A DNA stretch of 64,000 nucleotides from Spizellomyces punctatus DAOM BR117 (lineage: Eukaryota). The DNA lies in NCBI GenBank assembly GCA_000182565.2, contig KQ257451.1. One strand, given 5' to 3'. Below the pieces are notes generated by a model, which searched no databases, was not told the DNA's origin, and saw only the letters and a list, made by a program, of their open reading frames with translations. Both the position numbers and the translations under genes were made by a program. Below are positions 12,876-40,886 of the stretch, one piece after another. Positions within the stretch are counted from its first letter, which is position 1, and the number at the start of each line of letters is the position of its first letter.

Positions 12876-12899
12876 ATCACTCTTTGGGACTTTGAAATG

Positions 12900-14912: not shown

Positions 14913-14927
14913 AAGTACAGAAAAGGT

Positions 14928-18650: not shown

Positions 18651-18778
18651 TGTGGGAGGAGTCTTGGCAGGATAACTAGTAGGTACAGCCTATTTTATAT
18701 ATTCAATGAACGTTACACAACCTAACTCTAAACTTTTGTCCGAAAACTAGCCTGAGGTTGTCCGAATGTGTGGAGCGG

Positions 18779-21760: not shown

Positions 21761-21773
21761 GAGCTACTTTCTA

Positions 21774-22241: not shown

Positions 22242-22266
22242 GGAGGAATTATCGATAGTATAGGGT

Positions 22267-22539: not shown

Positions 22540-22612
22540 GGTTGGGTTGTCTGGTGTGAGGAGTGAGGGGCGAGACGAGCGTTTTATAGACTTTCTTTTA
22601 GTGTATAGTCAG

Positions 22613-23404: not shown

Positions 23405-23496
23405 AGGGCAATGACAAGACTGCCAGTGTGTGCAGTTGGTATTTATAGGCGATGGATATGTTGTATTGGATGATATGTAGAGTGTACCTAAGCATT

Positions 23497-26400: not shown

Positions 26401-28869
26401 ATAGTTACCATCTCCATCAGTTTCCCATACAGGATTCCCCTCCCCATCTACAACAGGTGCACCGTTTTCATCTTCTTCTTGTTTACGCCGATGGGCATAT
26501 CCAAAGACCGCGATCCAGCCGGCGGCCGCCACTGCCGGCCCGAACAATGCTGGAACCAGACCAGTGCCTGGCGCTGGTGAGACAGGCCCCAGTAACCCAC
26601 CAGAAATCGGTGCCACTGCCGCAGCAGGGCCAGACACACTGACCGTGTTGCTAGACCCGTCGGCTTGCTCGGTCACATCCTCATCGTTGTTTTCTTCCGT
26701 GTCGTCATCGTCCGCTGTTTTGACGCCTGTGGCAGAAATCACATTCCCAGTGATGGTGATACCTGGCCCGGGGATGTAGCCCTGAATCACACCCCCCAAA
26801 ACAGTAATTCCGTTTGTACCGGTGTACGACCCCTGAATATTGCTACCCACAACAGACACACCGCTGGATCCTGTGTAGGCTCCTTGGATACTGCTCCCAC
26901 TGACAGTGACACCATTGGTCCCCGTATAGGAGCCTTCAATATTTCCCCCGTTGACAGTGACACCGTTAGACCCGGTATAGACTCCTTTGATCGTATCTCC
27001 GTCCACGGCCACGCCATCAGAACCTGAATATGCCCCTCGAAACTCATTCTCTACACGCGTGACACCGTTGCTTGCGGTAAGAATGTCTTTGACAGTGACC
27101 GTGTCGCTGTTGGTCTCTATGACAAGCCCGCCTTCAGCATATAGGTCTAACAGCACTTCGTGATCGCTATTTTCAAACAAGCCCCTCGTAAACGTCCGTG
27201 TGTCTCGAATTTTATTCACCTCTACCATTTCGAGAGCGCCCTCCACTTGGAGAGCCAATTGAATGTCATTATTCGTGCCTGACCGGACTTGTAACCCGTT
27301 GATGGGCTGAAAATTCAACCCTGACGCAATCTTGTCTTCAACGATGCGAATGGTGCTGCCGTCCACGAGAGGGGATGGGTTAACAGCAACATTATTGTTA
27401 CTGTCTATCTGTAGCGATGCAGCACACCTCACACTCAGTTCACGGCGACCATTGACTTCAGCCGAAACGTCAATGCCGCCAGCTTGCTTGGCTTGGATGA
27501 ACTGAGCCAGAAAGCCTTTGGTGACCGCATAATTGTCTTGGCTTGGGGAAAAGCTGAACCTCGAGGCCAATTGCACGTCGTCCAAATCCAGACGGTTAAA
27601 CGTTTCGTTGTAGGTGAAATTAGGCCGTGACTGTAGACCGTTAAACACCCCAAAGTAAGGAATACGCCCATTCCCGTGTGTTTTCATTTCGAGTTGACCA
27701 TTCGTTTGCGTGAAATCATTGGAAGCCATCAACCGGAGAACCGTAATGTCAGTGTCACCCAGAAACGTAAACAAATCGGTCAGGGTGGAGAATCCCAAAT
27801 CCAACAAATCGCCTGGCAACAGGGCGGACAGTTCCGTTAAACCGGATGTGCTACGCAGGGCCCCAAGGGGTTTCAAAATATTGGTGATGTTGGTTTCCAA
27901 TTTTCCGTCATCGTTCACCTTGAGCGATTTGTGGAGATCTAGAGCCAACTGTTCTTGGTCCACTTTGAATGGGGTCTTTGACCTCAACCGTACATGGGTG
28001 GTTGAACTCTCGCCTGGTGTAGTCTCATAATACTGTAAAGGTGGGTCCAATGCGTTGGCTGTGCGAACCACCGTTAACTGGTTGTTGATATCCACGAACA
28101 ACGTGGCTGGGTCCGTGTCGAGCGAGATATCGATGGTGTCCCCTGCACGTACAGCATCGAGAGGGGGGTTGGCTGTGACACCTTTGACCAGACCGCCAAA
28201 ATCCGCATACAGTTCGTTGGTCGCATCATCGACTTTCAATGTATCATCGTCAATGTTGAGTGATATTGCAATGTTGTCACCTGTCCTCTGGGTTTCGAGA
28301 GGTGTGCTGCTTGACACCTGTTTAACCAGACCGTCAAAATCAGCATACAACACTTTTGTAGTATCATCCACTTTCAATGTCAACTCGTCAATGTTGAGTG
28401 ACAGGTCAATGTTGTCTCCTGTCCTTTGAGCTTCCAGAGGATCCTGTGCGGTGACGCCTTTCACTAACCCGTCGAAATCCGCGTACAATTCTCCAGTATC
28501 TTCATCCACTTTTAATGTCAATTCGTCGAACGCCAGCCCGACTGTAGTGGTTTCGTTGGGCTCATCAAACACTTGCGTGATGGGTGCAGTGGCCAAGATA
28601 TCTTTTACGATTTTCCCCGCGGCCGACCACCATAACGTTCCCGTCCACACTTCCACCCGGTTTGTGTCGGTATTGAAAATGACCGTTCCTCTTTTCACAT
28701 GGCTCAATGCATCTCTCCCTGCGGTGGTGAACCGTCGCAAAGTTAATCCTGGCGCGATACTGTTGGGGGTATTGACAACGACATCATCTTCTACGTTCAC
28801 ACTGTCAAAGACCGCATCGTCTGAACCTGTGAGGGTCTTGCTGGAGGGGAACGGTCTTGCTCGTGCCAT
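23497..28869 (-). CDS. Large fibre/spike protein (1790 aa) with several repeat types
   Basis: 46-aa beta repeats, 17-aa YTGxxGVxVxGxxI repeats, ATxxYVD and KQPLNTNLT tail-fibre-like repeats, a duplicated ~170-aa module, and a C-terminal beta head (FAVPTTGLYTMTF). Confidence 0.8.
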   Translation of the reverse strand: MARARPFPSSKTLTGSDDAVFDSVNVEDDVVVNTPNSIAPGLTLRRFTTAGRDALSHVKRGTVIFNTDTNRVEVWTGTLWWSAAGKIVKDILATAPITQVFDEPNETTTVGLAFDELTLKVDEDTGELYADFDGLVKGVTAQDPLEAQRTGDNIDLSLNIDELTLKVDDTTKVLYADFDGLVKQVSSSTPLETQRTGDNIAISLNIDDDTLKVDDATNELYADFGGLVKGVTANPPLDAVRAGDTIDISLDTDPATLFVDINNQLTVVRTANALDPPLQYYETTPGESSTTHVRLRSKTPFKVDQEQLALDLHKSLKVNDDGKLETNITNILKPLGALRSTSGLTELSALLPGDLLDLGFSTLTDLFTFLGDTDITVLRLMASNDFTQTNGQLEMKTHGNGRIPYFGVFNGLQSRPNFTYNETFNRLDLDDVQLASRFSFSPSQDNYAVTKGFLAQFIQAKQAGGIDVSAEVNGRRELSVRCAASLQIDSNNNVAVNPSPLVDGSTIRIVEDKIASGLNFQPINGLQVRSGTNNDIQLALQVEGALEMVEVNKIRDTRTFTRGLFENSDHEVLLDLYAEGGLVIETNSDTVTVKDILTASNGVTRVENEFRGAYSGSDGVAVDGDTIKGVYTGSNGVTVNGGNIEGSYTGTNGVTVSGSSIQGAYTGSSGVSVVGSNIQGSYTGTNGITVLGGVIQGYIPGPGITITGNVISATGVKTADDDDTEENNDEDVTEQADGSSNTVSVSGPAAAVAPISGGLLGPVSPAPGTGLVPALFGPAVAAAGWIAVFGYAHRRKQEEDENGAPVVDGEGNPVWETDGDGNYVLVPNSQVVIAASDYGDDTGGCTRLLFDTPPCASTNLDLIEAEQAVNFDYLRRYVSTKFPGLVTPYLQATTTALTNYVDTGLATKQPTGDYATNTALTSGLAGKQPLHVNLTSLSNTAPSLDVNTFTLGGTPLNSQRTFLVKNKSTGTGASSFIGFENDTALGSYLLFNSSTNTSGVGANGLRLRNDAGKIQIQSKGGKGLTIAETTGNMTLDGNIQSTQLLAISATNSYAEVALGDGTNMATLFKNGSARSADGGVNTLTLRNDTGTTRVQATGGKGMTIAPTTGNATFDGTIAATGTASAEGGKQLATREYVDTGLATKQAVGDYATNTALTNGLATRQPLNTNLTGLSGATPTLTGDLTVTGTVTAEGSKQVATQEYVDLAGDGVIVTLNPDYPLPLATRQYVDVAVATKQDAGDYATNSALTNGLATKQDAGDYATNTALANGLATKQPTGDYATNSALTSGLAGKQPLNTNLTNLSGATPTLPKLEVGAGDTSTFYGDVAFYGQVLLDGTDPLVGTDYVVTALATKQPLNTNLTSLSGANPSLPKLDVGSGSTSRFYGDVEFYGQMLQDGVDPLVALSYVDSSLAGKQPLNTNLTALSSTTPTLDVNFYTLGSTSVNGQRTFLVKNKSNGTSATTFIGFENDTAIGAYLLFNSSTNTGGAGTNGLMLQNGAGKIKIQSKGGKGLTIAETTGATVFDGNTQVISASNSYAEVALGDGTNFATLFKNGSARSADGGVNTLTLRNDTGNTRIQATGAKGLTIAATTGNISLDSTTASTSTSTGAFVVPGGVGVGGALYAGGNLYMSGTNIVATQAWVNSVNSGKIVKRVIGATDTTNGSGLFVNSSSSVFFAVPTTGLYTMTFKWLAVGTATGYITAHLAITSSSAGASDPTCVYSAVSPDYYRSFVNGSFQHLEFSESAKLDSTTTYNVKLVVSGTNTCAKSSADTNYEHIIEVTRCYYDDREL
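28075..28560 (-). repeat. 138-bp (46-aa) tandem repeats within the fibre gene
   Basis: AATC(C/A)GC(A/G)TACA recurs at about 28200, 28338 and 28476. Confidence 0.85.
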
Positions 28870-28913
28870 GATAATTATTGTATGAAAACATATAATTAAA
28901 CGATACTCTGACC

Positions 28914-30029
28914 ATGGGTAAATCGTGTTGTACGAGTTGTTTACGCCCAGGCGGAGGAGGAGGAACCTGCCATAAACGCCCGGTCGTCAGGTTCGCCCCC
29001 GTCGATCGTACGCCCACGTACCCAAAATCCAGTGTTGTCACGGGGGCCATCCCGCCTATGGGCGGTGTTGTGGGTAACGAAGGCGTGAAAGCCACCTCTG
29101 GAGCCGACATTGCCGAATGGGTCCTTCCTGAACATCGCCCTATTGCCGCCATGGTGTTTGGACTCTTGTACCAGAAACGGCTCAAGGACGTGGATGGGTA
29201 CCTCCTCCAACCGATGGAATCCCTGCGTGTTGGCGTATGGTACAACCGCGTCAAACACCATACGGTTGTCGGGTTGCGGGGCACCTTGCTAGGCGCTCAA
29301 GGCGGTTTACAAGACCTGAAAGACGACGGCGTGGTGAGCGGACTCTTGGGCGGCGCGAGTTGTGATTTAGGGATTGTGAAGGAAGCCACTACGGTCATGG
29401 ACACTGTGATGGCGGCCTCCCACTTGAGGACCAGTTGGATTACCGTGGCGGGATTTTCCTTGGGCGGCAGTGCAGCCATGTGTTTAGGCAACATGTACCC
29501 CCATGTCGAAGTGGTCAGTTTTGCTGGAGGGGCTCCTGCTACGCAGCCTACGTTGGTAGGGCCAGGCCCCGATCGAGCGATCCACTACCATGTCGTTGGC
29601 GATTTGGTGAGCAGCCATATGAGTCCCGCTGCGGCTACGGTCGTGAGAGTGGATAAAGGGTTCACCGACTTTTCGGTGGTCAAACACCATTCCAGCGACC
29701 GGTTTCTGCGGGCGGATTGGGCAGGGCGGCGGGTAGACGCCGACTTTGAAGATCAGTTGTTTCTGGCATGGGCCCGCGGTGACAACCGTAGTACGGCTGG
29801 AAAAGTGTCTACATGGGTGAAACAGGGATTGATCTCGTTACTGCCCTCGCCTTTACGCACAGTCGCCGGGATGGTCGACTCCCAAGTAGACGCTACGTTC
29901 GCTCGCGTGGCCGAGTCTTCGCCTATCCCAGGCAGCACGCGGTTCCTCCAGACTCAAGGGGACCCGTTCACCCTAGCAACCGAATTTGATAAAGATGATG
30001 AAGACGACGAAAGTGGAGAAGTACTTTAG
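28914..30029 (+). CDS. Lipase (class 3 alpha/beta hydrolase)
   Basis: VVGLRGT, nucleophile elbow VAGFSLGG, GDLVS (Asp), KHHSS (His). Confidence 0.85.
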   Translation: MGKSCCTSCLRPGGGGGTCHKRPVVRFAPVDRTPTYPKSSVVTGAIPPMGGVVGNEGVKATSGADIAEWVLPEHRPIAAMVFGLLYQKRLKDVDGYLLQPMESLRVGVWYNRVKHHTVVGLRGTLLGAQGGLQDLKDDGVVSGLLGGASCDLGIVKEATTVMDTVMAASHLRTSWITVAGFSLGGSAAMCLGNMYPHVEVVSFAGGAPATQPTLVGPGPDRAIHYHVVGDLVSSHMSPAAATVVRVDKGFTDFSVVKHHSSDRFLRADWAGRRVDADFEDQLFLAWARGDNRSTAGKVSTWVKQGLISLLPSPLRTVAGMVDSQVDATFARVAESSPIPGSTRFLQTQGDPFTLATEFDKDDEDDESGEVL

Positions 30030-30080
30030 CCATAAAAGGAAATGTAAATTATGTGTAACAATATATTACTGTGAAAAACA

Positions 30081-32250
30081 ATGGCCGACCATTTTCGTTT
30101 CTACCCTAACGCCGAGGACACCATCACCCCGTGGAACGCGAGGTACCAGTACCCGTCGCAATCCAATGCGGCGAGGAAAGTGACCCCGCGTATCCCGCCC
30201 GTCAACGGGATGGTGTTTGGCGCCAACTATGGGAAATACATCAAAGTCCAGTTCCCCGCGCAAGGTTACGTCAACCCGACCAACACGACACTGACGTTTG
30301 ACGTTACTCTCACGGGGTACTCCCAATCCTCGGCCGTCGAACAAGTCAGGTTCCAAAACAACATTCAATCGATTTTCAAACGTGTCAAGTGGATGTATGG
30401 GTCTACCCCCGGTGAAGATATTGACGACTACAATGTGATGGTCCGCAATTTGACCGAATGGACAGCGAGCAACGCCTATGGCACGATGGATTCCACGTCT
30501 ATTAATGAAGGGATCGGCGGGGTGGTGGTTGGACGGACCCTCACTGCCGGTGATCCAAGCCCTGTACAATCGGGTGCTGCTCTCGTCAATGCGCGTCAAG
30601 CGTACATCCAAGGCATTGACAACACGGACGCCGCATTAGGGTTTGGGGGTGTTCCCAATCGTCACAACCATAGTTTATTGACAGCTACTTATGGGACTAA
30701 CGCATGTACCCGGCGGTACCAGGTCTCCCTCATGTTGGGACTCTTGACACAGGAAAAGTTGATCCCAACTAAATTCATGGCCTCTCAACTGTCCATCGAA
30801 ATCGAACTCGCTTCCCCCGAAGAATGTATCATTGTCGCCTACAATGGAACCACTGACAACCTCGCTCCCCCGACCTATCTCGTCCACAACATCCAGCTCA
30901 TCCCTGAAATCATCAATTTCGACCCCTCCTACGACGAAATGTTCATCCGTGGATTGTCCCAAGGAGGAGTGTGAGTACCTTTCCATTTCAGCTAGTTCAC
31001 GTTCCACGTCCACGGCCCATGCCAGGTTTTCGGCACGATCGTCTATCATGTCACCGTTGAGATGCACCACTTTTGATAACCGATGGACCGGCAACAACGA
31101 ATCCATGTGAAAGACCGTAGCAACCAACTCGTCGACATTGTAAGTGTCTCCTTCCACACATACTGTATTACGCCCGTCGTGGCCATATTGTTTCTTACAC
31201 CATTTTCCTTTGTAGTATACGACTCCACGGTTGGTGACGACGAGTCCTTTCACTTGGGGGTGTGTGCGTGCATCAGTCTTTTTAGCAAAGTAACGCCCTT
31301 TACATAGATGCAACCGCCGAAAGACTGTGTCCCCCAACACCACACGGTTCCGCTCGCTACACCAATCCAACAAGGTTTCTACGGAGACATGATAGGCGGC
31401 TGCTGCTGCGGCGATGGACGTGTACCGCTTGACCTTGACTAACTTGTAAACATCTAATCCATGTTGTTCCTCGATCATATTTTTCAATGTTGATTAGGCC
31501 GATCAAGTTTGGAACGTGAGTTCACGGGTGGCTTTTAAAGCGTAGCTTACCCATTTTATATATCTTCTTTTTTCCAGATGGCACACGTTCAGAACATCTA
31601 CTGCCGGTTCAAGTGTCATTAATTTCCCTATCCACGAAAGAGGCCGCTCTATCAAATCCTTGTTTGCGGTGCAAAGGCGACAAGTTCCTGTTTACGGTCG
31701 AGATATGGGAGCCACGCCGAACGCTTCCAACGGGATTATGCAATCGTACCAGTACCGCATCGGTGGTGAATATTATCCCGCGGCTCCGGTCGAATTGTCC
31801 ATGTCACCGTCCAGCAAGGTTTCCAACGGGGGTACAGAGGCGTGGCTCGAATTACAAAAAGCACTCAACACCGTCGGGGATTACCGTCTTTCCTCGGCCA
31901 TCAACACGCTCCGTTGGCATGCGCCGTACAGTGCGGTTTTGTGTGAAACTGATTTCGCCGGTACCATTATACGCGGCGACCAGACAGAACCGTATGCCCA
32001 GACAGTGGTCGCCCCCACTTCCAAGCAACAGGCGGGTAATATGGGTTCACACCATTTCGCCGCGGCGATTTCATTGGAAGCGACCAACGGGACCGAGATC
32101 TCGGGTCTCAATGCGCAAGAACAGTCTGATATTACCTTTATGGCGCGTTACTCTGAGTCTCAATTGGCGGATTACCAGATCTTTGTTTTTGCTTACATTG
32201 ACAAGATGATTATTTTGCGTGAAAACAATGTGATGGAAATGGTAGAGTAG
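30081..32250 (+). CDS. Major capsid protein (double jelly-roll, PLV-type), 3 exons: 30081-30970, 31498-31515, 31578-32250 (526 aa)
   Basis: Splicing at GTGAGT..TAG and GTGAGT..CAG gives one frame (GLSQGGV-PIKFGT-WHTFRTS..ERGRSIKSLFAVQRR). MCP-like motifs IKVQFPAQGYVNP, EDIDDYNV, KLIP..LSIEIEL, YQYRIGGEYYP; directly upstream of the penton. Confidence 0.88.
30675..31478 (-). CDS. Intron-encoded HNH homing endonuclease-like protein (antisense to MCP)
   Basis: NUMOD1-like YTSIAAAAAAYHVS and HNH_3-like VDELVATVF..VVHLNGDMIDDRAENLAW; ATG 31478 (the ORF track starts at TTG 31487). Confidence 0.8.
   Translation of the reverse strand: MIEEQHGLDVYKLVKVKRYTSIAAAAAAYHVSVETLLDWCSERNRVVLGDTVFRRLHLCKGRYFAKKTDARTHPQVKGLVVTNRGVVYYKGKWCKKQYGHDGRNTVCVEGDTYNVDELVATVFHMDSLLPVHRLSKVVHLNGDMIDDRAENLAWAVDVERELAEMERYSHSSLGQSTDEHFVVGGVEIDDFRDELDVVDEIGRGSEVVSGSIVGDNDTFFGGSEFDFDGQLRGHEFSWDQLFLCQESQHEGDLVPPGTCVSPISSCQ
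30971..31497 (+). other. MCP intron 1 (527 nt, GT-AG) containing an antisense HNH endonuclease gene
   Basis: Donor GTGAGTAC at 30971, branch-like TGACTAAC at 31436-31443, no AG until TAG ending at 31497; removal restores the frame. Confidence 0.88.
31516..31577 (+). other. MCP intron 2 (62 nt, GT-AG)
   Basis: GTGAGT donor, GCTTAC branch-like site, TCTTCTTTTTTCCAG acceptor. Confidence 0.85.
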
Positions 32251-32306
32251 TGCGCTTTATTTTTGTGTGTAAACCATAAGTAGTAGTAGTAGTAGTACAA
32301 TACATT

Positions 32307-33179
32307 ATGCCCCAAGCTGTCGGTAAAGCTGCGTTCGGTATCGCTGATTTTTTACGTTACAATGAAGTGTATTTCGACTCTTCTGAACGGACGTATGGCA
32401 CGACCAATTCTCCAAATTATTCGGTGAAACCACTGACCAATGTCGTGGGGTTCAAACTCCTTGACGCCCAAATTCCGTTCTCGTATTACGTGTTTCCCGA
32501 GGGTCGCAACACGTTCCAGCTGTACGAACCGGCTACCGACGCCACAACGACCGTCACCATTCCGCCTGGAAATTACACGCCTTCGTCGTTCGTAGCCGTA
32601 CTGCAGACCGCCTTGGAAACGGCTGGTGACGCCGAGTACACCGTCGCCTTCTCCACTCCCACGGGCAAATTCACGATTACGTCCAGCGTGGCTGAACCGT
32701 TTGCGGTCACATTTGACTTTGACGGGCCAGGGCCGTGGATCGGGTTCACACATGCAGCCACGTTTACGGCCTCGGCGGGCGGTGTCTTAGTCGCTCCGTT
32801 CGTGGCACGACTGAGTGGGCCTGATTACATCTATGTCTGCTCCCAGTCCCTTGGGTTCCTCAATTACAATACGTTGCGGCTCGGTGACGCCTCGACGTCC
32901 GGCGCCGTGGTCGCTAAAATCCCTGTGACGGTGAATCCAGGTGGGGTCATCACATGGACGGACCCAGACCCAACAAAACTGTTTGAATGTGATGTGGGCG
33001 TGTTGGAACGTGTGGATTTGTATGTGGCCGCTGGGGGCGATGTGACCACTCCACTGGATTTCAACGGTGCACCGTTTTCCTTGAAATTTATGTTTGTCAC
33101 GTCTGACGATATCTATGTTAAACGTGGCGCTGGGGATACATTGGGAAATCCGACCAAGCGGATGATGTTTTCGAATTGA
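32307..33179 (+). CDS. Minor capsid (penton, single jelly-roll) protein
   Basis: VYFDSSER, NVVGFKLLDAQIPFSYY, VTIPPGNYT, DYIYVCS, VVAKIPV, PLDFNG are motifs typical of PLV/virophage pentons. Confidence 0.85.
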   Translation: MPQAVGKAAFGIADFLRYNEVYFDSSERTYGTTNSPNYSVKPLTNVVGFKLLDAQIPFSYYVFPEGRNTFQLYEPATDATTTVTIPPGNYTPSSFVAVLQTALETAGDAEYTVAFSTPTGKFTITSSVAEPFAVTFDFDGPGPWIGFTHAATFTASAGGVLVAPFVARLSGPDYIYVCSQSLGFLNYNTLRLGDASTSGAVVAKIPVTVNPGGVITWTDPDPTKLFECDVGVLERVDLYVAAGGDVTTPLDFNGAPFSLKFMFVTSDDIYVKRGAGDTLGNPTKRMMFSN

Positions 33180-33223
33180 ATTTTTGTATGTAAACATAAA
33201 GTATATCAATACATCCCATTACT

Positions 33224-35074
33224 ATGGAACGTCTTTCTCGTACGACACAACCGCCCAAAAACCCGGTCGTGACCGTTGGACCGCAAGGTCCGCTTGGCGC
33301 CACCCTTACTGGCCGTCAAGTCGTAGACACGCGCCGCGGGTACCGACAAGTCGATGTCAAACCTAAACTCCATGCCCAACGCGTGGATACCGTGGCTCCC
33401 GAAGTGAAAGGCAAATTTTGGGGCCGCCCCACATTCAAGACCCAGTACGGTTGGAAATTCCATGATTACAGAGCTCCGGATCTGTACCATGAACCTATCC
33501 TCAGTCCGCTCAAACAATTCGATTGGACCAACAAGGTCGCCACAACCATTCAGGCCGCTGACCGTACGGGGTCAAAGAACCCATGGGTTCCAAAAGCCAA
33601 CCCTGGAGGGTTGTTGGTCAAACCGAAAAATTATTTGACACGTGGGTCGAACTTGAGGACGTTGGAAACTGTTGATGAATATGGAAAACCGTTCATCCCT
33701 GACGTCATGGATTGGGAACGTACTCACAAAGATAACCTCAATCTTGAACGATCGGTTGTGGACCGCTACGATGCTCACTATGACGACCCAATGGAAACTG
33801 ACACCATCTTCTCTGGCCCTCCAAAAAATGATATGAAAGCGCGTGCCGCATCTGAACGTACTCAATTGAATGCATTGTTGAAAGCATTGGACAATGCTCG
33901 GTCACATAACATTGAACTCTCACCGCAGATGGCGGAAACTTTATCTCAATTGGAATCAGTGGCGAAGGACGCGGCCGATGCCATGGAAGGGATCGAACAC
34001 GTGGGCTATATCCAGCGCGCCACTCAGCCTTCCAAAACCGCTGCCGCAGAATCCGGCTACACGGCCCAAGCCATCCACCAATTCATTGCGATCCTCGATG
34101 GGATCAAGGCGGCTTCATTGACATCCTTACCCGAGACCGCATCACAAATGTGGTACGAACGTGTCTTGGACCAAGTGGAATCCTTGTCCCAAGCGTTCGG
34201 ATTCTTGTCTGAACGTTTGAATGATGATTCCGTGCCTAAAAACCAATTGGAACGGCAACACGGGATCCTTGTCGATGTCGAGAAGAGGGTTGGTTTACTC
34301 ACTGTCTATGCCCTCCACGGTCAACGTACACAGATGCGCCCCCAAGAAATGAATGCCAACGTGACTTACATCCACAACAAACTCGGTGAATGTTTATTGT
34401 GGGTGAACCAGCTGCTCCACTCTAAGGGGTACTCTGCCACAGCCGCCAACGGTTACCAAGACGTCCCTGCAACCGCTTCCGAGTTTGAGGATATTAGTGC
34501 GGCATGGGAAGATCTGTTGACCATGGCAGACGCCCCAACCCAACGTGCCATGGCGCCGGTCCTTAACGCGTTACGCCCTGCGCGTGAATCATTGAGTAAT
34601 ATTGCCATGGACATGGACATCACGCCTACGGCCATTGCCCCGGCTATTGGTAATGATATAGATGTAGAACGCTCGGCCGCAACCGGTGTTAGCAGCAGCG
34701 GCGGTGAAGGCGTCGCTGGTGGCGAGGCCTCGGCCACGGCGGTCACTCACACGGTCGTCCCCCAAACGACTGTCACTGGCACCAACCTCCCTGACGTAAC
34801 GGATGAGGAAATTGATACTTTCATTCAAACCGGTCAATTTAGGGCGGAATGGGGAATTCGCACTAAGGCTCAACGTGACCCCAAACGTCTTATACGTAAT
34901 AATGCATTTCGGGAAAGGGTCCGTACAACCCTCGCCCGTGAGAAAGCATTGACCCAACAACCGAGACGCAATACCATTAATCTGGATAAGCTCACCCCAC
35001 GAAAGACCGTCCTCCAACCTCCTGCAGCCCCGTCTACGTCCGTTGTACACGATGCTGACACTGAAGCCATGTAA
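33224..35074 (+). CDS. Viral hypothetical protein (616 aa), possibly a virion core protein
   Basis: Long ORF in the structural cluster, preceded by the TGTATGTAAACA motif; basic N-terminus, helical middle. Confidence 0.7.
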   Translation: MERLSRTTQPPKNPVVTVGPQGPLGATLTGRQVVDTRRGYRQVDVKPKLHAQRVDTVAPEVKGKFWGRPTFKTQYGWKFHDYRAPDLYHEPILSPLKQFDWTNKVATTIQAADRTGSKNPWVPKANPGGLLVKPKNYLTRGSNLRTLETVDEYGKPFIPDVMDWERTHKDNLNLERSVVDRYDAHYDDPMETDTIFSGPPKNDMKARAASERTQLNALLKALDNARSHNIELSPQMAETLSQLESVAKDAADAMEGIEHVGYIQRATQPSKTAAAESGYTAQAIHQFIAILDGIKAASLTSLPETASQMWYERVLDQVESLSQAFGFLSERLNDDSVPKNQLERQHGILVDVEKRVGLLTVYALHGQRTQMRPQEMNANVTYIHNKLGECLLWVNQLLHSKGYSATAANGYQDVPATASEFEDISAAWEDLLTMADAPTQRAMAPVLNALRPARESLSNIAMDMDITPTAIAPAIGNDIDVERSAATGVSSSGGEGVAGGEASATAVTHTVVPQTTVTGTNLPDVTDEEIDTFIQTGQFRAEWGIRTKAQRDPKRLIRNNAFRERVRTTLAREKALTQQPRRNTINLDKLTPRKTVLQPPAAPSTSVVHDADTEAM

Positions 35075-35141
35075 TTATTTTTTAAATGTAACCTACTCTT
35101 ATAAATACCATTGGCCATTCTTTTCCCCTATTTCCTTCGTG

Positions 35142-35498
35142 ATGGTTAAACCCAATGCCAAGGGTAAAAACCCAACCAAAACGCCACATTCCAAACGCCA
35201 AAAGGCCCAAACAGCCCTTAGGATTGACACCTCAGCAAAGACTGGCTCTGGACAAAAAGGCCGGCGTCTCGTTCGTAACGGGAAAGGTCAAACCGCCAAA
35301 GTTCGACCCGGCGGATCTATTCCATCATCCTCCACAAAGAAAAGATATCATCCCTCCCACGATACGATTAGCAAAGCCGCAGCCGCCGCCAAGCTTGTCA
35401 AAGGAGCCGTTGGGTTCATCCAAGGACTTAAAACCAATCACACCGCAGTCACCAGTATGGGCGGTACAGGCAAACCCTACTCCGACGTACGAAAGTGA
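35142..35498 (+). CDS. Small Lys/Arg-rich protein, putative DNA-condensing core protein
   Basis: 118 aa, very basic, TATAAA at 35100-35105; overlapped by +1-frame ORF 35155-35604. Confidence 0.5.
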   Translation: MVKPNAKGKNPTKTPHSKRQKAQTALRIDTSAKTGSGQKGRRLVRNGKGQTAKVRPGGSIPSSSTKKRYHPSHDTISKAAAAAKLVKGAVGFIQGLKTNHTAVTSMGGTGKPYSDVRK

Positions 35499-35652
35499 CA
35501 CTAGTCGTAGTAGTTGTGATGAGGATGGGTGGTGGGACGTGACCGTCGACTCCACATCTTCCGATTCTGATAGTGATGATAATTCTGATGATGAGCAAGT
35601 ATAAATAGATCGTCTTCCGTAGATTTTCTCCCCTTTTTACTCCCAATACAAC

Positions 35653-36054
35653 ATGTTGTCTCCACGTATCACGGTGTTCCACTACCCTGAAGGCCATAAC
35701 TCCTTTGATATACTCACAGGAGAGATCATCAATACGATGCATAAACACAACTTTTGTCCGATGGTAGATGCCCTCCATGGCCATGACGAGACGTGGCTTT
35801 TCGAAACATTTCACAACGTTCAACATCATCGATTCGTTTTCATGACCATGCATGGATTCGTTTCTGCACCTGTCGACCGTATAAAGGACAACACGTTTGG
35901 CGACCCTAGTTTTGTCATTTATTTTCCTGACGATCCTGATCTCGTTGTTCCTTGGAAATCTATCGTTTTATATTTCGAAGGGATATTTGGGTTACGTGCA
36001 CCTGTTTTCATAGACGATACGTTGAGGTACTTTCTCGGTGTCGAAAAAGCATAA
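35653..36054 (+). CDS. Viral hypothetical protein (133 aa)
   Basis: ATG ORF with TATAAA at 35600-35605. Confidence 0.6.
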   Translation: MLSPRITVFHYPEGHNSFDILTGEIINTMHKHNFCPMVDALHGHDETWLFETFHNVQHHRFVFMTMHGFVSAPVDRIKDNTFGDPSFVIYFPDDPDLVVPWKSIVLYFEGIFGLRAPVFIDDTLRYFLGVEKA

Positions 36055-36107
36055 ATAGACAGCATAGCAACGGATTTCCCCTTTCCCACTTTTTATTACA
36101 CCAATAT

Positions 36108-36278
36108 ATGGTTGTGCTCAGTCCTGTTCAGTTTTGGTGTGCCATCATATTTGTTGTCTTTGTACCTTTGATCTCACTTGTTGGGCTGTTGGTCTATCAA
36201 CATACTCAGAGCGCTAAACTTGCCGTCGCCGAAACCGTTCGCCAGCAACACCACAGCGCGTGCACATCTCCATTATGA
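36108..36278 (+). CDS. Small single-TM viral protein (56 aa)
   Basis: Hydrophobic FWCAIIFVVFVPLISLVGLLVY; its stop overlaps the next ATG (ATGA). Confidence 0.5.
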   Translation: MVVLSPVQFWCAIIFVVFVPLISLVGLLVYQHTQSAKLAVAETVRQQHHSACTSPL

Positions 36279-36895
36279 CGAAAATCTATAAAGCCTCGCT
36301 CGCCGATATCACCAATGTGTTGACGGGTGGTTCGCCACCTGCCAAGAAACAAGGAGGTCGTAAGCGTAAAGAGAATCCTGTCGAGGAACCGCCTGAAGCT
36401 ACTACTCAGCCTGAGGCGACTAATGAGCCAGAAACCCCTCAACAACGTCGTAACCGGCTAGCCCGCGAACGCCGTCAAGCCAAGAAATCGGTTTCTGTCG
36501 AGCCCGTTCCCGAACCTGTTACTGAACCCGTTCCTGAGCCGCCTGTGCCTGAACCTCCTGTCGTTGAACAGCCTGTTGAACAGCCCGTGGAACAACCAGC
36601 TACCCAGCCCACTGTTGAACAGCCTAAAAAGAAGAAACAGCGTACGGAACGGCCTAGCGGAGCCCCGCCGAAATGGTTTGTCGATTCTTACAACAATATC
36701 ATCAAACATGTGTTGGACTACAAAGTGGCTACTGAGACCAACGCTCAATTGGCGCCTACTGTCGCTGCGGCTGCTCAACAGAAATGGGACGAACAAAAGA
36801 ATGAAGTTGCCCCTTTGGAGGATAAATTGTTTTCTGAAATGTTTGGTAGAGCGTTTGGCCGTAGTCACCGTAAACCAGCTAGGAAACTGCTTTGA
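36275..36895 (+). CDS. Viral Pro/Glu-rich protein with NLS-like basic clusters
   Basis: PEPV/EQPV repeats, PAKKQGGRKRK, PKKKKQR, conserved-looking PPKWF motif. Confidence 0.7.
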   Translation: MTKIYKASLADITNVLTGGSPPAKKQGGRKRKENPVEEPPEATTQPEATNEPETPQQRRNRLARERRQAKKSVSVEPVPEPVTEPVPEPPVPEPPVVEQPVEQPVEQPATQPTVEQPKKKKQRTERPSGAPPKWFVDSYNNIIKHVLDYKVATETNAQLAPTVAAAAQQKWDEQKNEVAPLEDKLFSEMFGRAFGRSHRKPARKLL

Positions 36896-36929
36896 TTTTT
36901 AAATGCAAATAAACATTGTATTGTACACA

Positions 36930-38559
36930 ATGAACGTGACGCCTAAAATTGTACGTAAACATCAAACTGTGCGTGTAGCACAAGGGTTGCCAGGCCACCA
37001 ACGCGACCGTGATGGCACCTTGCTGTCGCTGGACGTGGCTTCTGTACCGGAAGATGAGACAGATCACCATCCCGCCCCACCACACCCCGCGCTGCTTCCA
37101 CACGAAACGTCGCTGCTGCTCGTCGCGTCAAAGGGGTCCGGCAAGACGACGTTGATCTGTAATTTGCTCGATTTCTACAGAGCATTTTTTCATACAATAC
37201 TTGTGTTCAGCCCCACAATCAACAACGATTCAAAATGGGTGAGTACCTCTTCTTGTCTTTTCCGTTTACGGTTGGCCAGCATGACGATGGCTCGCCGTTG
37301 GTTTTCATACCGCGTCACCCATTCGAGGTTATCTGCGCGGTTGTTTTTGGTGTTGCCGTCGATATGGTCAATCTCGGGTGAACAGTGTTTAAGGAGCGAA
37401 TGTTTTTCGTCTGGATAAAATGTGTCTCCAACAATACGATGGATGAGGTAGTTTTTGTACTTGATCATGACTTGCATGTAGCCGTTACTGCCGATGTACC
37501 CAAACGTACGTCCACCGTTCGCATGTTCTATACGCCCATGTGACGAGACTTTGACTGGTAGGGTTGGGTGGTCAAACCATACTTCGTACTCGCCAGGCTG
37601 TAACATGAGGTCTTGATTGGCGTATTTCCATTCGTAACCCCGATAACGGAATTGAGTATTGCCGTGTTTTTTGAAGTGATACCATAACGTTGGTTGGGAT
37701 ACCCCGATTGATTTTGCCGCAGCGTTTATAGATCTGAATTCTGTTTCTGAATCGTCCAACTCGATTCTAACCACTCTTCTATTTGCTGGTGTCCATTTCC
37801 TCATTTTTCTCATAGGATTGGGTCAAGGGCCAGAAACTGTTGGCGCGCAACACAAAACTCGAAAAGTTTGTCAAATCCCTCGAAACGAAAAGGGCCCGCG
37901 ACCTTTCAGGCGTTGTCGTAGGGCGTGAACCGATGGAGTTGGCTAGAGAACGGGAGAAGGAAGACGATATTGTCGACGAGGATGATTTCACAGGATATAT
38001 CCCCGATGAATGTTTTCTCGACGATTACAATGAACAGATGCTGGTCGATGTGATGAATGAACAAGACAAGTTAATCAAATGGCTTAAAGCCCACGGAGGG
38101 CACAAGACGGTTGCGAATCGCCTTTTACTGATTTTCGATGATATGGTCGGGTCGTCCCTCTTTTCGAACGCAAGAAACAATGCCTTCAAACGTCTCAACT
38201 CCAATCTGCGCCACTACTCTGCTTCTGCCATTATTGTGTCCCAGTCGTACAAGGAACTTCCACGCATCTGCCGAGTCAATGCCTCGGGTGTCATCTTGTT
38301 TGAAACGCCTAATGAAAAAGAGTTGGAAGTGTTATACGAAGAAAATCCTTGCTCGCTCAAGAAAAACGATTGGCTTTCCTGTTATTACGAATGTACAGCT
38401 GACCCATTCTCGTTCATGATGATCAACTATAAGCGGCCGAAACAACTCAGGATCTCAAAACGATTCGATGAGTTTTTGCTGTGCGATACGATGAAAGGTA
38501 TCCCGGATCGACGGCCACCAATGAGATCTGCCGCAGATGACCATCCACCAACCATATAA
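36930..38559 (+). CDS. DNA packaging ATPase (A32/FtsK-HerA), 2 exons: 36930-37238 and 37816-38559 (350 aa)
   Basis: Walker A LLVASKGSGKTT in exon 1; Walker B LLLIFDDMVG and LRHYSASAIIVSQ in exon 2; a phase-0 GT-AG intron joins NNDSKW-DWVKGQ. Confidence 0.92.
37190..37813 (-). CDS. Intron-encoded HNH homing endonuclease (antisense to ATPase)
   Basis: NUMOD1-like EFRSINAAAKSIGVS, VSSHGRI, GYMQV, and canonical HNH_3 LIHRIVGDTF..IDHIDGNTKNNRADNLEWVT..EN. Confidence 0.92.
   Translation of the reverse strand: MRKMRKWTPANRRVVRIELDDSETEFRSINAAAKSIGVSQPTLWYHFKKHGNTQFRYRGYEWKYANQDLMLQPGEYEVWFDHPTLPVKVSSHGRIEHANGGRTFGYIGSNGYMQVMIKYKNYLIHRIVGDTFYPDEKHSLLKHCSPEIDHIDGNTKNNRADNLEWVTRYENQRRAIVMLANRKRKRQEEVLTHFESLLIVGLNTSIV
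37239..37815 (+). other. ATPase intron (577 nt, GT-AG) containing an antisense HNH endonuclease gene
   Basis: Donor GTGAGTAC at 37239, branch-like TTCTAAC at 37765-37771, pyrimidine tract, first AG at 37814-37815. Confidence 0.9.
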
Positions 38560-38600
38560 AAGTCGTGGCTTGGCTAGGTTTTTCCCTGCCACCAACAAAA

Positions 38601-39008
38601 ATGACTTCTTCCGACTATTATGCGTTCCGATACGAAATCATTACCTTACATGCTGGCGTTGATGTCCGAGCGGTCGTCGAAGTCCGAAAACCTGGCTGCC
38701 GGCTCCCGTTTACTGACGTAATCACGAATTACCATACCCGTGGCTTGAAACCTGTGTTTACGGATCTGTTTATTTCCGCTGATTGGGGGACATGTTTGGC
38801 TGATTACAAGTTTTTGCGCCAATTGTGGGACGACCTAGAAATGGACGGAACGTTTGATGTTGACATGTTACTCAGCGACGCCACGCGGCGGTGCCTACCC
38901 CAAACCGAGGCGCTGATTCCAGACGCCGAGCCTCGTGTATATAGACGTTCTTTGGAAGAAGTGCGTGATCGGATTATGGCGCTTGTCCCTGTCACTCTCA
39001 CCGAATAA
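38601..39008 (+). CDS. Viral hypothetical protein (135 aa)
   Basis: ATG 38601 with TATAAA at 38555-38560. Confidence 0.6.
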   Translation: MTSSDYYAFRYEIITLHAGVDVRAVVEVRKPGCRLPFTDVITNYHTRGLKPVFTDLFISADWGTCLADYKFLRQLWDDLEMDGTFDVDMLLSDATRRCLPQTEALIPDAEPRVYRRSLEEVRDRIMALVPVTLTE

Positions 39009-39091
39009 ATAAAACGCCTCACTTGTAAACAATGTCTTGTCTATTTAAACTCCTCCAAAACTTTTCTTATTTCTGTCCTGACTGTACACGT

Positions 39092-39424
39092 ATGGGCTTA
39101 TTCGACCCTACACCCCCACTCATGGCTTCCACCCCCGCATTAGGCCCATTCCCTTCCAACGCCCCTCGCCCAGCAGGCTTTTTTGCGACAGTTGCTGAAC
39201 CGGCCCAAACTCCTCCCCCGGCGGCCGATTATTACAAGGAGGGCGGGCTTGAGACCATCGACATTTTGAAAGCCAAACTGTCGACTGAACAATTCGAGGG
39301 ATTCTGTCTTGGAAACGTGTACAAGTACCTGACGAGAGCGGGCAAGAAACCGGACAACTCCAAATCCGATGATTTCAAGAAAGCGTACTATTATTTAGGC
39401 TTGCTGGCTGGTCCTAAAGAGTAA
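39092..39424 (+). CDS. DUF3310 (SaV/T7 gp1.7-like) domain protein, right copy
   Basis: DYYKEGGLETIDILKAKLSTEQFEGFCLGNVYKYLTRAGKKPDN; abuts the right TIR; alternative start at 39032. Confidence 0.8.
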   Translation: MGLFDPTPPLMASTPALGPFPSNAPRPAGFFATVAEPAQTPPPAADYYKEGGLETIDILKAKLSTEQFEGFCLGNVYKYLTRAGKKPDNSKSDDFKKAYYYLGLLAGPKE

Positions 39425-39431
39425 TGTAGAC

Positions 39432-39609
39432 TTTCAAACTCCGCTCTTGTGTAACCCATTACGTCATCAATCAACACGTGATTTTCTACTGGCCCGCCCC
39501 ACGTGACCCATTCTCACTCTTGTGTAACCTTCCAGTGTGGCACAGTCATGTAGGGGTGGCACAGTCATGTAATGGTCTAAATCCTCCTTATACTATATCA
39601 TCCCCATTC
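39432..39609 (-). repeat. Right terminal inverted repeat (178 bp)
   Basis: TTTCAAACTCCGCTC...ATCATCCCCATTC matches the left TIR in inverted orientation. Confidence 0.97.
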
Positions 39610-40886
39610 AGGAATTTATGAAATAGGTAGACTACTAAAAGGAGGTGGTATAACGGCATGTGTATGATGCTGGGGCGGGTTATCGGAGTGCATTTCCAAA
39701 CTTCAGGGATGCATTCAAAGCCCAACGAAATCACCATCTTTTATCTGAATGAACACCCCGGTGCCGATCCGCCTTCGCTACTATCGTTTCTGTATTCACC
39801 TAAGCAAATACCTTTCTCAAATTAGTCCAGTCAGATTTTTGGACCAAGGGAGCAGTCTTTGCTAATTAGCTTTCACATTGCATCTTTGGCATAGGCAATG
39901 TGCTGATCTAGTGGCAAAACTTGCAGGCCAACCAAATGAGAACGTTTCTGGGCATTCGTAAACAACAACAGTTGCTCAACAGCGTCAGGGTCCGCTGAAA
40001 CCCTGCAATACGGTCACAATCTGATTCGGCTGACATTGCTCGCCATCCCGATCATGTTTACGTAAGCCACCATATTGCAATTAAGGTTTTCGTCTGTGTA
40101 ATCTAATGATCACCAGCACATGTGTCTCTCCAAGAGTTACTGTACAATCCCAAGTTCACCAAATAGCAACCCATCCTTTGATCGAGGCCTTAATCCTCAA
40201 TGGCTGGATATCGGGACACATCTATCGTAAATTCTGGAAGGACATATCCTTGAATTGCACAAGTTCAAATATCTGTTGTAGAGCTACAAATTCATCTGTT
40301 TGGTGCTTCTAAACTATTACGTCGTGTACTCTAATCTACCAAATGTGTAGATGTTATCTGGAGAGAACACAAAGGATTGTCGGTTTTCTGGCTCCACAAA
40401 TCGCTTCTGTTTCGAGAACCTCTTAAATTGCGTTCGGACAGCCTGGATGCAACAGTCCATGCTTCATCTTTCAAACCTCGGCCAACATTGGGCCACCGCG
40501 TACTGATCATCGTATACCATTTCTCATTTTTCAATTTTCAGCTGGTTGGGGGCATCCTTTTCGATGGGTGAATACTGATGCTGACACCATATGTAATTAA
40601 CTACCATTGGGATGCACTTCTTCATACTATTGAAAGTGGCCATCAAGGTAAAACATCGCATTGCTTGGCACACAAAACATTATAATTGGATGGAATGTGG
40701 ATTACTTAAGCCTAAAAAGGCAAGAATTTGTGACATCAGCAGCATTAATTATCGTCAAGCCCCATCACTGCATGCCAGCGAGTAGATGGCGGATTAGAAC
40801 GTCCAAAGCTTCACTGCAGCTGGCACCTGAATCTCGGCTGGTTATTCTCAGTACACTCCGTTTCTTCCATCATCGTTTGCTTGAAC

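What the first reader, a model, noticed from the sequence alone, without database searches (positions are those of the whole stretch)
37190..37815. ATPase intron: intact HNH whose start codon is built into the 3' splice site
Seen: the intron (37239-37815) separates Walker A from Walker B. The antisense ATG (CAT 37811-37813) overlaps the acceptor TAG (CATAG), and the purine-rich codons of MRKMRK form the sense-strand polypyrimidine tract. The HNH motif is canonical (IHRIV..IDHIDGNTKNNRADNLEW) and the ORF stops 49 nt inside exon 1. Inference: tight dual coding of splice signals and nuclease N-terminus, probably an active enzyme. Its promoter would have to lie antisense within exon 2.
Basis: partly seen in the sequence, partly recalled or inferred. 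Interest (0 to 1): 0.9.

Follow-up and report, generated by a model that had tools for sequence, protein, structure and literature searches.

The report
Virus intron carrying antisense homing nuclease
A virus integrated in a soil fungus genome has its DNA-packaging gene interrupted by an ordinary-looking nuclear intron that is almost entirely filled, on the opposite strand, by an intact homing-type nuclease gene, a kind of mobile intron so far described only in an unrelated group of marine viruses.

Summary
The window comes from Spizellomyces punctatus. Positions 12681-39626 are an integrated Polinton-like virus (PLV) with inverted terminal repeats and a protein-primed polymerase.

Its A32-type packaging ATPase is split by a 577-nt insert (37239-37815). 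The insert has GTGAGT, one CTAAC, a pyrimidine tract and TAG. Removing it restores the junction KW|DW, which is continuous in 27 of 27 homologues examined. There is no ribozyme signature.

The minus-strand 207-aa ORF is an I-HmuI-like HNH_3 endonuclease. A relative carries the same split ATPase and the same nuclease. Its exons are 83-89% identical and its nuclease 62-64%. The nuclease ORF stayed open, which happened in 12 of 1000 neutral simulations.

Best reading: a spliceosomal homing intron ("shintron"), a class named in 2025 for mirusviruses only (PMC12768974), here in a PLV.

Splicing and nuclease expression are not shown. The RNA reads laid leave the locus almost silent, with no junction reads. 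The ATG/TAG overlap and the ORF tail in exon 1 are not conserved as protein features in the relative.

The parts
12681..39626 (.). Integrated Polinton-like virus (about 27 kb) bounded by inverted terminal repeats. Host genes flank it.
   Evidence: Inverted repeats 12681-12878/39429-39626 (198 nt, 94%) and 13317-13491/39225-39399 (175 nt, 86%). Protein-primed PolB PF03175 at 14928-18650(-). Host CPSase at 4840-6207 and myosin-chitin synthase at 50456-54868.
36930..37238 (+). Packaging ATPase exon 1 (103 aa), ending ...SPTINNDSKW
   Evidence: Pox_A32 profile positions 9-54. 83% identical (86/103) to P0035 of the relative.
37125..37151 (+). Walker A (ASKGSGKTT)
   Evidence: Translation. Invariant G.GKTT columns in the 21-sequence alignment A3.
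37239..37815 (+). 577-nt GT-AG intron, phase 0
   Evidence: Removal gives KW|DW, continuous in 27 of 27 homologues. No Rfam match. RNA fold z-score -0.09.
37239..37244 (+). 5' splice site GTGAGT
   Evidence: The same nine letters GTGAGTACC are fixed in the relative by its two overlapping reading frames.
37767..37771 (+). Only CTAAC branch-point-like motif in the intron. The branch A (37770) is 45 nt from the intron's end.
37786..37815 (+). Pyrimidine tract and acceptor TAG. An 82-nt AG-free zone lies upstream of the acceptor.
   Evidence: 21 of 27 pyrimidines; longest AG-free gap in the intron.
37816..38559 (+). Packaging ATPase exon 2 (247 aa plus stop), starting DWVKGQKLLARN
   Evidence: Pox_A32 27.9 bits against a cutoff of 22.8, profile positions 53-174. 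89% identical (203/228) to P0002.
38122..38142 (+). Walker B (LLLIFDD)
   Evidence: It lies in the most conserved 12-residue windows of the family.
37190..37813 (-). HNH endonuclease ORF, 207 aa plus stop. It fills the intron and runs 49 nt into exon 1.
   Evidence: HNH_3 E=2e-10. phrog_59 E=6.6e-23. I-HmuI 1U3E by sequence E=4.3e-5 and by fold E=1.8e-4, prob 1.00.
37319..37369 (-). HNH catalytic motif DHIDGNTKNNRADNLEW (residues 149-165)
   Evidence: H150, D152, N154, N157, N158, N162, L163 and W165 are invariant in 9 of 9 aligned sequences.
37676..37744 (-). N-terminal NUMOD1-like helix-turn-helix (residues 24-46)
   Evidence: NUMOD1 21.1 bits, below the cutoff of 22.8. It aligns weakly to the C-terminal DNA-binding part of I-HmuI. 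Helices 29-35 and 40-49 in the model have block-mean pLDDT 85-92.
37175..37246 (-). 72-nt minus-strand intron implied by the public gene model SPPG_08891 (P0021). Donor GTACTC, acceptor TAG.
   Evidence: P0021 reads ...RKRKRQEE then KSSKLQ.... The tail exon was located at 37174-37067. Not verified by RNA.

Best explanation
The 577-nt insert is a spliceosomal homing intron (shintron-like element) in the packaging-ATPase gene of a Polinton-like virus integrated in the Spizellomyces punctatus genome.

Proposed mechanism:
1. The virus genes are transcribed in the nucleus.
2. The host spliceosome removes 37239-37815, using GTGAGT, the CTAAC branch point and the first AG downstream. This yields an uninterrupted 350-aa ATPase.
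3. The opposite strand of the intron encodes an I-HmuI-like HNH_3 nuclease with an N-terminal helix-turn-helix and basic tracts (MRKMRK, RKRKRQEE; my guess is nuclear import signals).
4. When made from its own minus-strand transcript, the nuclease would nick or cut an intron-less ATPase allele near the KW|DW junction. Repair from the intron-bearing copy would then spread the intron.

Shown here: the anatomy, the exact restoration of the junction, the absence of ribozyme features, the nuclease family, and retention of split ATPase plus nuclease in relatives with both kept open.

Inferred: splicing in vivo, expression and activity of the nuclease, its target site, and homing.
For: 1. Junction. 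Uninterrupted homologues read ...SPT..D.KW|DWVK.... 27 of 27 aligned homologues have no gap at the junction. Locus L082 is also uninterrupted.

2. Splice signals. One of 44 frame-preserving GT-AG pairs matches the homologues and carries the only GTGAGT. There is a single CTAAC, 45 nt from the 3' end. The pyrimidine tract is 21 of 27, and an 82-nt AG-free zone ends at the acceptor.

3. Not self-splicing. No Rfam match at E<=1 in 36000-39500. Fold z-score -0.09, with 47 of 100 shuffles folding at least as well. The antisense ORF occupies 575 of the 577 nt.

4. Nuclease. HNH_3 40.6 bits. phrog_59 E=6.6e-23. I-HmuI by sequence and by fold. Motif residues invariant in 9 of 9 sequences.

5. Relative on one 23,640-nt contig.
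- Exon-1 ORF P0035 is 83% identical and ends ...NNDSKW then VST.
- Exon-2 ORF P0002 is 89% identical.
- Nuclease P0022 is 62-64% identical.
- Its two overlapping frames fit at one offset only and fix GTGAGTACC at the same place.
- Both exons stayed open and better conserved than the nuclease. The ATPase therefore stayed under selection with the insert present.

6. In substitution-only neutral simulations to 64% amino-acid identity, the nuclease ORF stayed open in 12 of 1000 runs, and in 3 of 1000 with the ATG kept.

7. A 12,395-letter contig about 93% identical, in a root metatranscriptome run, also carries the insert.

8. TATAAA/TATATA lies within 80 nt upstream of 7 of 19 genes of the element, against about 0.8 expected. 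This fits RNA polymerase II transcription.

9. Precedent. Passages read in PMC12768974 describe 334 endonuclease genes (171 HNH) inside GT-AG introns of mirusviruses, mostly in virion morphogenesis genes.
Against: - No RNA evidence of splicing. In run X9 (RNA raw reads of the same species label, about 6 in 100 of the run read, reads up to 60 letters), no joint is listed anywhere in 33000-39700. Depth is 0-0.45 over exon 2 and at most 0.7 over most of the nuclease body.
- The contigs that cross the intron (X1, X3) are unspliced. They may be DNA.
- The X1 relative has a 1-letter deletion at 37586 and a diverged 67-nt block at 37432-37500, both inside the nuclease ORF. Its copy may be decaying.
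- No promoter-like motif lies upstream of the nuclease ATG.
- Presence of the insert follows relatedness: only the window and its closest relatives have it. One old gain explains the distribution without any homing.
- The junction is only moderately conserved in the family (rank 101 of 339 12-residue windows).
- The branch point lies 45 nt from the acceptor and the intron is 577 nt. From memory, not tested here, both are long for fungal introns.
Confidence: 0.62

Rival explanations
1. A spliced intron whose nuclease is not a homing enzyme. One version: an ordinary intron was colonised once by a free-standing HNH gene. Another: the HNH gene now serves the virus, for example in genome processing for packaging or in competition between viruses. 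In either case it does not move the intron.
For: - The insert is found only in the window and its nearest relatives. This fits a single gain.
- HNH_3 genes occur free-standing in Polinton-like viruses, and one lies directly upstream of a packaging ATPase (PMC12220804, passages read).
- The nuclease ORF is under selection, which a selfish element fixed in its lineage would not need.
Against: - The ORF fills the whole intron, so no trace of an older intron remains.
- All 27 other homologues lack any intron at this site.
- The protein is of the I-HmuI type with a NUMOD-like DNA-binding part, the architecture of homing enzymes. From memory, it is not the small HNH associated with phage terminases.
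Confidence: 0.17
2. A dead gene. A free-standing HNH gene inserted into and inactivated the ATPase of a decaying endogenous virus, and the GT...AG ends are coincidence.
For: - The locus is nearly silent in the RNA laid.
- The terminal repeats are only 94% and 86% alike.
- Unspliced RNA would give a truncated 163-aa product from ATG 36930 (frame 36903-37418).
Against: - Exact GTGAGT, CTAAC, AG-free zone and TAG lie at the homology-defined junction.
- Both exons are intact and 83-89% identical in a relative whose nuclease is only 62-64% identical.
- The donor is conserved in that relative.
- Other large ORFs of the element are open: 1240 aa and 1790 aa.
Confidence: 0.12
3. A split ATPase. The two halves are translated separately and assemble, so no RNA removal is needed.
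For: Exon 2 has possible starts (TTG 37840, ATG 37933). ORF callers report it as a separate protein (P0001, P0002).
Against: - The exon-1 frame runs 60 codons into antisense nuclease sequence before a stop.
- The ends match splice signals exactly.
- No homologue of this kind was found split apart from the HNH-bearing ones.
Confidence: 0.04
4. A self-splicing group I or group II intron with a reverse-oriented endonuclease gene.
For: HNH_3 enzymes such as I-HmuI live in phage group I introns (PMC3428280, listing only; otherwise recalled). Antisense endonuclease genes occur in nuclear group I introns (PMC9548176, title and start of abstract in the listing).
Against: - No Rfam match at E<=1.
- Fold z-score -0.09.
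- The ORF leaves 2 nt of the intron non-coding on the other strand.
- The ends are GTGAGT...TAG.
Confidence: 0.02

Closest known systems
Spliceosomal homing introns ('shintrons') of mirusviruses (PMC12768974, Nat Microbiol 2025; abstract and passages read)
   Same: - GT-AG intron without group I/II features.
- Sits in a virion-morphogenesis gene of a DNA virus of a unicellular eukaryote.
- Carries an HNH-type homing endonuclease gene.
- Implies nuclear transcription of the virus.
   Different: - The host element is a Polinton-like virus integrated in a fungal chromosome, not a mirusvirus from plankton metagenomes.
- Splicing here has no transcript support.
- The nuclease gene is antisense and overlaps both splice sites. 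The main text of that paper holds none of the words antisense, orientation or opposite strand. Its supplementary tables could not be opened, so the orientation there is unknown to me.
I-HmuI (PDB 1U3E), the HNH nicking endonuclease of a Bacillus phage group I intron
   Same: - HNH_3 catalytic core with DH.DGN..NN...NL.WVT.
- Best and only significant match by sequence (E=4.3e-5) and by fold (E=1.8e-4).
- A helix-turn-helix DNA-binding part is present.
   Different: - Domain order is reversed: helix-turn-helix first, HNH second.
- Identity is 27% over 109 columns.
- It resides in a spliceosomal-type intron, not a ribozyme, and on the opposite strand.
Nuclear rDNA group I introns with antisense homing endonuclease genes (PMC9548176; title and start of abstract seen in the listing)
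   Same: An endonuclease gene on the strand opposite to the interrupted host gene, in a eukaryotic nucleus.
   Different: Those introns are ribozymes in rRNA genes and carry His-Cys box enzymes. Spliceosomal introns there sit inside the endonuclease gene, the inverse of this case.
Introners (transposon-derived spliceosomal introns)
   Same: Mobile DNA that brings its own splice signals and so creates new spliceosomal introns.
   Different: Recalled, not tested against a database: introners are multi-copy, short and non-coding or transposase-derived, often with target-site duplications. Here there is one copy in the window (tblastn). I saw no duplication or inverted ends at the junctions by eye. 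The element carries a homing-type nuclease.

Membership tests
Spliceosomal homing intron (shintron) | Interrupts a viral protein-coding gene, and precise removal restores the ORF | tested here: met
   KW|DW junction. 27 of 27 homologues are continuous. The product stays in frame at 350 aa.
Spliceosomal homing intron (shintron) | Canonical spliceosomal donor and acceptor, with no group I/II signature | tested here: met
   GTGAGT...CTAAC...TAG. Rfam found none. Fold z-score -0.09.
Spliceosomal homing intron (shintron) | A homing-type endonuclease gene lies within the intron | tested here: met
   HNH_3 / I-HmuI-like ORF 37190-37813(-). Caveat: it is antisense and extends 49 nt beyond the intron.
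Spliceosomal homing intron (shintron) | Splicing supported by transcripts | tested here: inconclusive
   No joint in X9. Depth below 1 over exon 2. Short reads, about 6 in 100 of the run read.
Spliceosomal homing intron (shintron) | Mobility: presence/absence among close relatives, and cleavage of the empty site | not testable with these tools
   Present in the window, in the 23,640-nt contig and in the X1 contig. Absent in 27 more distant homologues and in L082. This distribution also fits one gain.
HNH_3 (PF13392) / I-HmuI-like endonuclease | Profile match above the curated cutoff with the motif residues present | tested here: met
   40.6 bits against 24.8. H150, D152, N154, N157, N158 and N162 are invariant in 9 of 9 sequences. 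The motif aligns to that of 1U3E.
NUMOD1 (PF07453) DNA-binding module | Profile match above the curated cutoff | tested here: not met
   21.1 bits against 22.8. A helix-turn-helix is modelled there, so it is NUMOD-like at most.
Pox_A32 (PF04665) packaging ATPase | Profile match above the cutoff, with Walker A and Walker B | tested here: met
   Exon 2 scores 27.9 bits against 22.8. Exon 1 alone scores 16.6, on profile positions 9-54, which adjoin the 53-174 matched by exon 2. Both motifs are present.
Polinton-like virus | Terminal inverted repeats, protein-primed PolB, A32 ATPase, capsid genes | tested here: inconclusive
   Repeats, PolB and ATPase are met. No capsid gene was identified by Pfam among the 10 ORFs scanned. 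One integrated PLV in this species is reported in PMC7805220 (passages read). Its coordinates are in a supplement that I could not open.
Group I / group II intron | Conserved ribozyme core | tested here: not met

The most novel reading that the evidence does not exclude
Homing endonuclease genes that carry their own splice signals are a general way for DNA viruses that use the host nucleus to acquire new spliceosomal introns. On this reading they arose independently in Polinton-like viruses (double jelly-roll lineage) and in mirusviruses (HK97 lineage). The element here would be an active one: the antisense HNH enzyme nicks intron-less ATPase alleles at the KW|DW site and copies the intron into them. 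It sits in a culturable chytrid for which a genetic transformation method is published. The whole cycle could therefore be tested at the bench for the first time: splicing, antisense expression, cleavage and homing.
Probability: 0.35. Interest if true: 0.8.

Novelty: new member of a known kind. Interest (0 to 1): 0.62.

Why it matters
- Spliceosomal introns that carry homing endonucleases were first reported in late 2025, and only in uncultured mirusviruses. That paper says mechanistic study awaits laboratory cultures (PMC12768974, discussion passage).
- A case in an unrelated virus lineage suggests the phenomenon is broader than one phylum.
- This case sits in the sequenced genome of a chytrid that is grown in culture (methods passage of PMC12695648). 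A transformation method for it is cited in that paper's reference list as Medina et al. 2020, which I did not read.
- A spliced essential gene would also mean this Polinton-like virus is expressed in the nucleus by host machinery, and not only in a giant-virus factory. That bears on the open question of how such viruses replicate.
- Practical point: no full-length spliced ATPase from this locus appeared among the protein hits, although the length limits would have admitted a 350-aa product. Gene callers therefore miss this ATPase.
- My searches found no paper linking Polintons or Polinton-like viruses with such introns.

Tried and rejected
- **Whole genome.** None is held for the window.
- **The relative's DNA.** The relative's acceptor, branch point and dN/dS remain unseen.
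- **Other copies.** tblastn of the nuclease against the window found only itself at E<0.1.
- **Viral contigs, nuclease query.** 79 loci were returned, all 33-52% identical. I take them for phage-type genes from the hit pattern and did not inspect them. None holds the ATPase.
- **Viral contigs, ATPase queries.** The exon-2 query found nothing. The 21-sequence ATPase alignment found one uninterrupted locus, L082. A survey of interrupted ATPases was therefore not possible.
- **Metagenome contigs.** An alignment of the two nucleases gave two distant loci, L080 and L081 (28-32%), with tandem HNH units and no ATPase.
- **RNA.**
  - X9 gave no joints.
  - X2 (root metatranscriptome contigs, depth 0-8) is patchy. 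It has zero depth in both wholly intronic bins (37256-37703), but also in one exon-2 bin, so it says nothing about splicing.
- **Other introns in the element.** A pattern scan gave two candidates. The one at 20400-20464(+) does not join two reading frames. I dismissed the one at 34750(-) because it lies antisense to the long + strand ORF 33224-35074 and did not examine it further.
- **Host intron consensus.** The window gave too few sure cases. The fungal consensus GTRAGT/CTRAY/YAG is therefore recalled, not measured.
- **Representative search.** 18,846 relatives at E<=0.001, but only P0022 above 41% identity. The library holds no genomic context.
Full report
**What is there.**
- A + strand frame from ATG 36930 encodes 103 residues with a Walker A motif and ends ...SPTINNDSKW at 37238.
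- The next letters are GTGAGT. The frame then runs 60 codons further and stops at 37416-37418.
- At 37816, directly after TAG, a 247-residue frame starts with DWVKGQKLLARN and contains Walker B.
- Pfam places the two pieces on adjoining parts of the Pox_A32 packaging-ATPase profile: positions 9-54 and 53-174.
- On the minus strand, ORF 37190..37813 (207 aa) fills all but 2 nt of the gap. It starts at CAT 37811-37813, overlapping the TAG by one letter, and stops 49 nt inside exon 1.

**Where it lies.** The nuclease is identical over its first 189 residues to a protein that a public source names as from Spizellomyces punctatus DAOM BR117, on a 2,165,103-bp contig.
- In the window, inverted repeats at 12681-12878/39429-39626 (94%) and 13317-13491/39225-39399 (86%) bound a 27-kb element.
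- The element carries a protein-primed family B polymerase (PF03175) and a thymidylate synthase. Fungal housekeeping genes lie outside it.
- This is an integrated Polinton-like virus (PLV). One such element in this species was reported by Bellas and Sommaruga (PMC7805220, passages read). That text holds neither 'intron' nor 'HNH'. I could not confirm it is the same locus because the coordinates are in a supplement.

**Is the gap an intron?** Uninterrupted relatives of the ATPase read ...SPT..D.KWDWVK.QKLLA.N.
- I aligned 27 of the 34 hits with the computed spliced product. All 27 are continuous across W|D with no gap.
- Seven hits were left out. Three are the split forms (P0001, P0002, P0035). 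Four are short fragments (P0013, P0018, P0019, P0037). Of the fragments, P0037 also reads through the site.
- Of 44 GT-AG pairs that keep the frame open, only 37239/37815 gives this junction, and it has the only GTGAGT donor.
- The intron has one CTAAC, with its branch A 45 nt from the 3' end.
- The last 27 nt before CATAG hold 21 pyrimidines. The 82 nt before the acceptor hold no other AG, the longest AG-free gap in the intron.
- GTRAGT, CTRAY and YAG as the fungal consensus is recalled knowledge. I could not measure the host's own consensus from the window.
- Rfam finds nothing in 36000-39500 at E<=1.
- The intron RNA folds no better than shuffles: z -0.09, with 47 of 100 shuffles as good. 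A ribozyme is therefore very unlikely.

**The nuclease.**
- HNH_3 scores 40.6 bits against a cutoff of 24.8. NUMOD1 scores 21.1, just under its cutoff of 22.8. phrog_59 'HNH endonuclease' gives E=6.6e-23.
- The only solved relative is I-HmuI (1U3E), at E=4.3e-5 by sequence. The motif DH.DGN..NN...NL.WVT aligns.
- An AlphaFold model (mean pLDDT 78.4, from a shallow 9-row alignment) finds the same entry first: E=1.8e-4, prob 1.00, 109 columns.
- The helix-turn-helix comes before the HNH core, the reverse of I-HmuI.
- Motif residues are invariant in 9 of 9 aligned sequences.
- The family is huge: 18,846 representatives at E<=0.001. Only one is above 41% identity.

**The relative.** Three proteins lie on contigs of the same length, 23,640 nt, from one source. 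I take this to be one contig.
- P0035 is exon 1 plus read-through, 86/103 identical.
- P0002 is exon 2, 203/228 identical.
- P0022 is the nuclease, 62-64% identical.
- P0035 ends ...NNDSKW and then VST, as the window does.
- The tail of P0022 read backwards and the tail of P0035 read forwards fit each other at one offset only, over 69 nt. At the codon level, which I worked out by hand from that output, they fix the + strand there as AAATGG followed by GTGAGTACC. The donor is therefore conserved.
- A 4-nt indel follows. This is why the relative reads the exon-1 tail of its nuclease in another frame.
- The tail inside exon 1 is thus not a conserved peptide. The relative's start Met aligns with the window's M4, so the ATG/TAG overlap is not conserved either.

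**Selection.**
- Both ATPase exons are open and much better conserved than the nuclease. The ATPase therefore stayed useful with the insert in place, which requires removal at the RNA level.
- The nuclease ORF is itself constrained. With substitutions only, 12 of 1000 neutral runs to 64% identity kept it open, and 3 of 1000 also kept the ATG. Indels were ignored, which makes this control lenient.

**RNA.** This is the weak point. One call was allowed (33000-39700, likeness 85).
- Run X9 holds RNA raw reads of the same species label. About 6 in 100 of the run was read, and reads are at most 60 letters. It lists no joint anywhere.
- X9 depths (first mate on + / on −) are:
  - 43.2/36.4 at 36808-37031;
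  - 2.24/33.9 at 37032-37255;
  - 3.82/3.04 at 37256-37479;
  - 0.68/0 at 37480-37703;
  - 0.2/0.16 at 37704-37927;
  - 0-0.45 over the rest of exon 2.
- The ATPase mRNA and the nuclease mRNA are therefore essentially absent in what was read. Splicing is neither shown nor refuted.
- A patch of cover at about 36584-37255 ends in the bin that holds the donor. I cannot explain it.
- Run X1 is a root metatranscriptome. It holds one 12,395-letter contig at depth 50, with about 7% other letters. It spans 33000-39328 including the whole insert, with a diverged block at 37432-37500 and a 1-letter deletion at 37586. The tool warns that such contigs may be DNA.
- Run X3 (kind unknown) has an identical contig, 37532-38183, crossing the acceptor unspliced.

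**Promoters.** TATAAA or TATATA lies within 80 nt upstream of 7 of 19 ORFs of the element, against about 0.8 expected from its frequency in the element. This fits polymerase II. Neither the nuclease nor the ATPase has one.

**Comparison with what is known.** A 2025 paper on mirusviruses (PMC12768974; abstract and passages read) reports the following.
- 334 endonuclease genes (171 HNH) lie inside GT-AG introns.
- 64.1% of them sit in virion-morphogenesis genes.
- The authors name them spliceosomal homing introns (shintrons).
- They state that no such association had been seen before.

The words 'shintron' and 'spliceosomal homing intron' occur in no other relevant paper of the library. Searches combining Polinton or Polinton-like with intron, HNH and homing endonuclease gave no report of such an intron. 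A cryptophyte PLV study (PMC12220804, passages read) lists HNH_3 genes as free-standing or fused, and group I introns, but no spliceosomal case.

The present element meets the sequence-level features of a shintron. It sits in a different virus lineage, integrated in a cultured fungus. Its nuclease gene is antisense and overlaps both splice sites.

**Verdict.** I file it as a new member of a recently described kind. Confidence is 0.62 for the full reading. It is higher for 'spliced intron' and lower for 'active homing'.

Noticed in passing
window 13968-14912 (+): A complete thymidylate synthase (PF00303, E=3.6e-103) lies inside the repeat-bounded viral element, next to its left end. It appears to be virus-borne rather than a host gene.
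   Followed up: no
window 23497-28869 (-): A 1790-aa ORF of the element has several internal direct-repeat families (units of 50 to 300 nt, 66-81% alike) and no Pfam match. It may be a fibre or surface protein.
   Followed up: no
window 12681-39626: TATAAA/TATATA lies within 80 nt upstream of 7 of 19 ORFs of the element, against about 0.8 expected. A second recurring upstream word, TGTAAAC-like, was seen by eye.
   Followed up: partly
window 36584-37255: A sharply bounded patch of RNA cover (depth 30-45) has first mates on + to the left and on - to the right. It ends in the bin that holds the ATPase donor site, while exon 2 and the nuclease body are almost empty. Unexplained.
   Followed up: no
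window 35056: 26 RNA reads carry a loose run of T before 35056. This suggests a polyadenylated minus-strand transcript ending there, antisense to + strand ORF 35155-35604.
   Followed up: no
window 37067-37813 (-): The public gene model SPPG_08891 (225 aa, P0021) joins the nuclease ORF to a second exon through a 72-nt minus-strand intron (37175-37246, donor GTACTC). That intron straddles the ATPase donor site. No full-length spliced ATPase from this locus appeared among the protein hits.
   Followed up: partly
run X1, contig of 12,395 letters laid on window 33000-39328: A virus about 93% identical to this element over at least 6 kb is present at depth 50 in a root metatranscriptome run. A weaker signal appears in a second run of the same study. 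Close relatives therefore occur in the environment.
   Followed up: no
L080 920-2221; L081 4113-6638; P0023: Distant relatives of the nuclease occur as tandem arrays of HNH plus helix-turn-helix units in one ORF or locus. Many representatives of 300-850 aa match in 2-5 stretches. This may explain the reversed domain order here.
   Followed up: no
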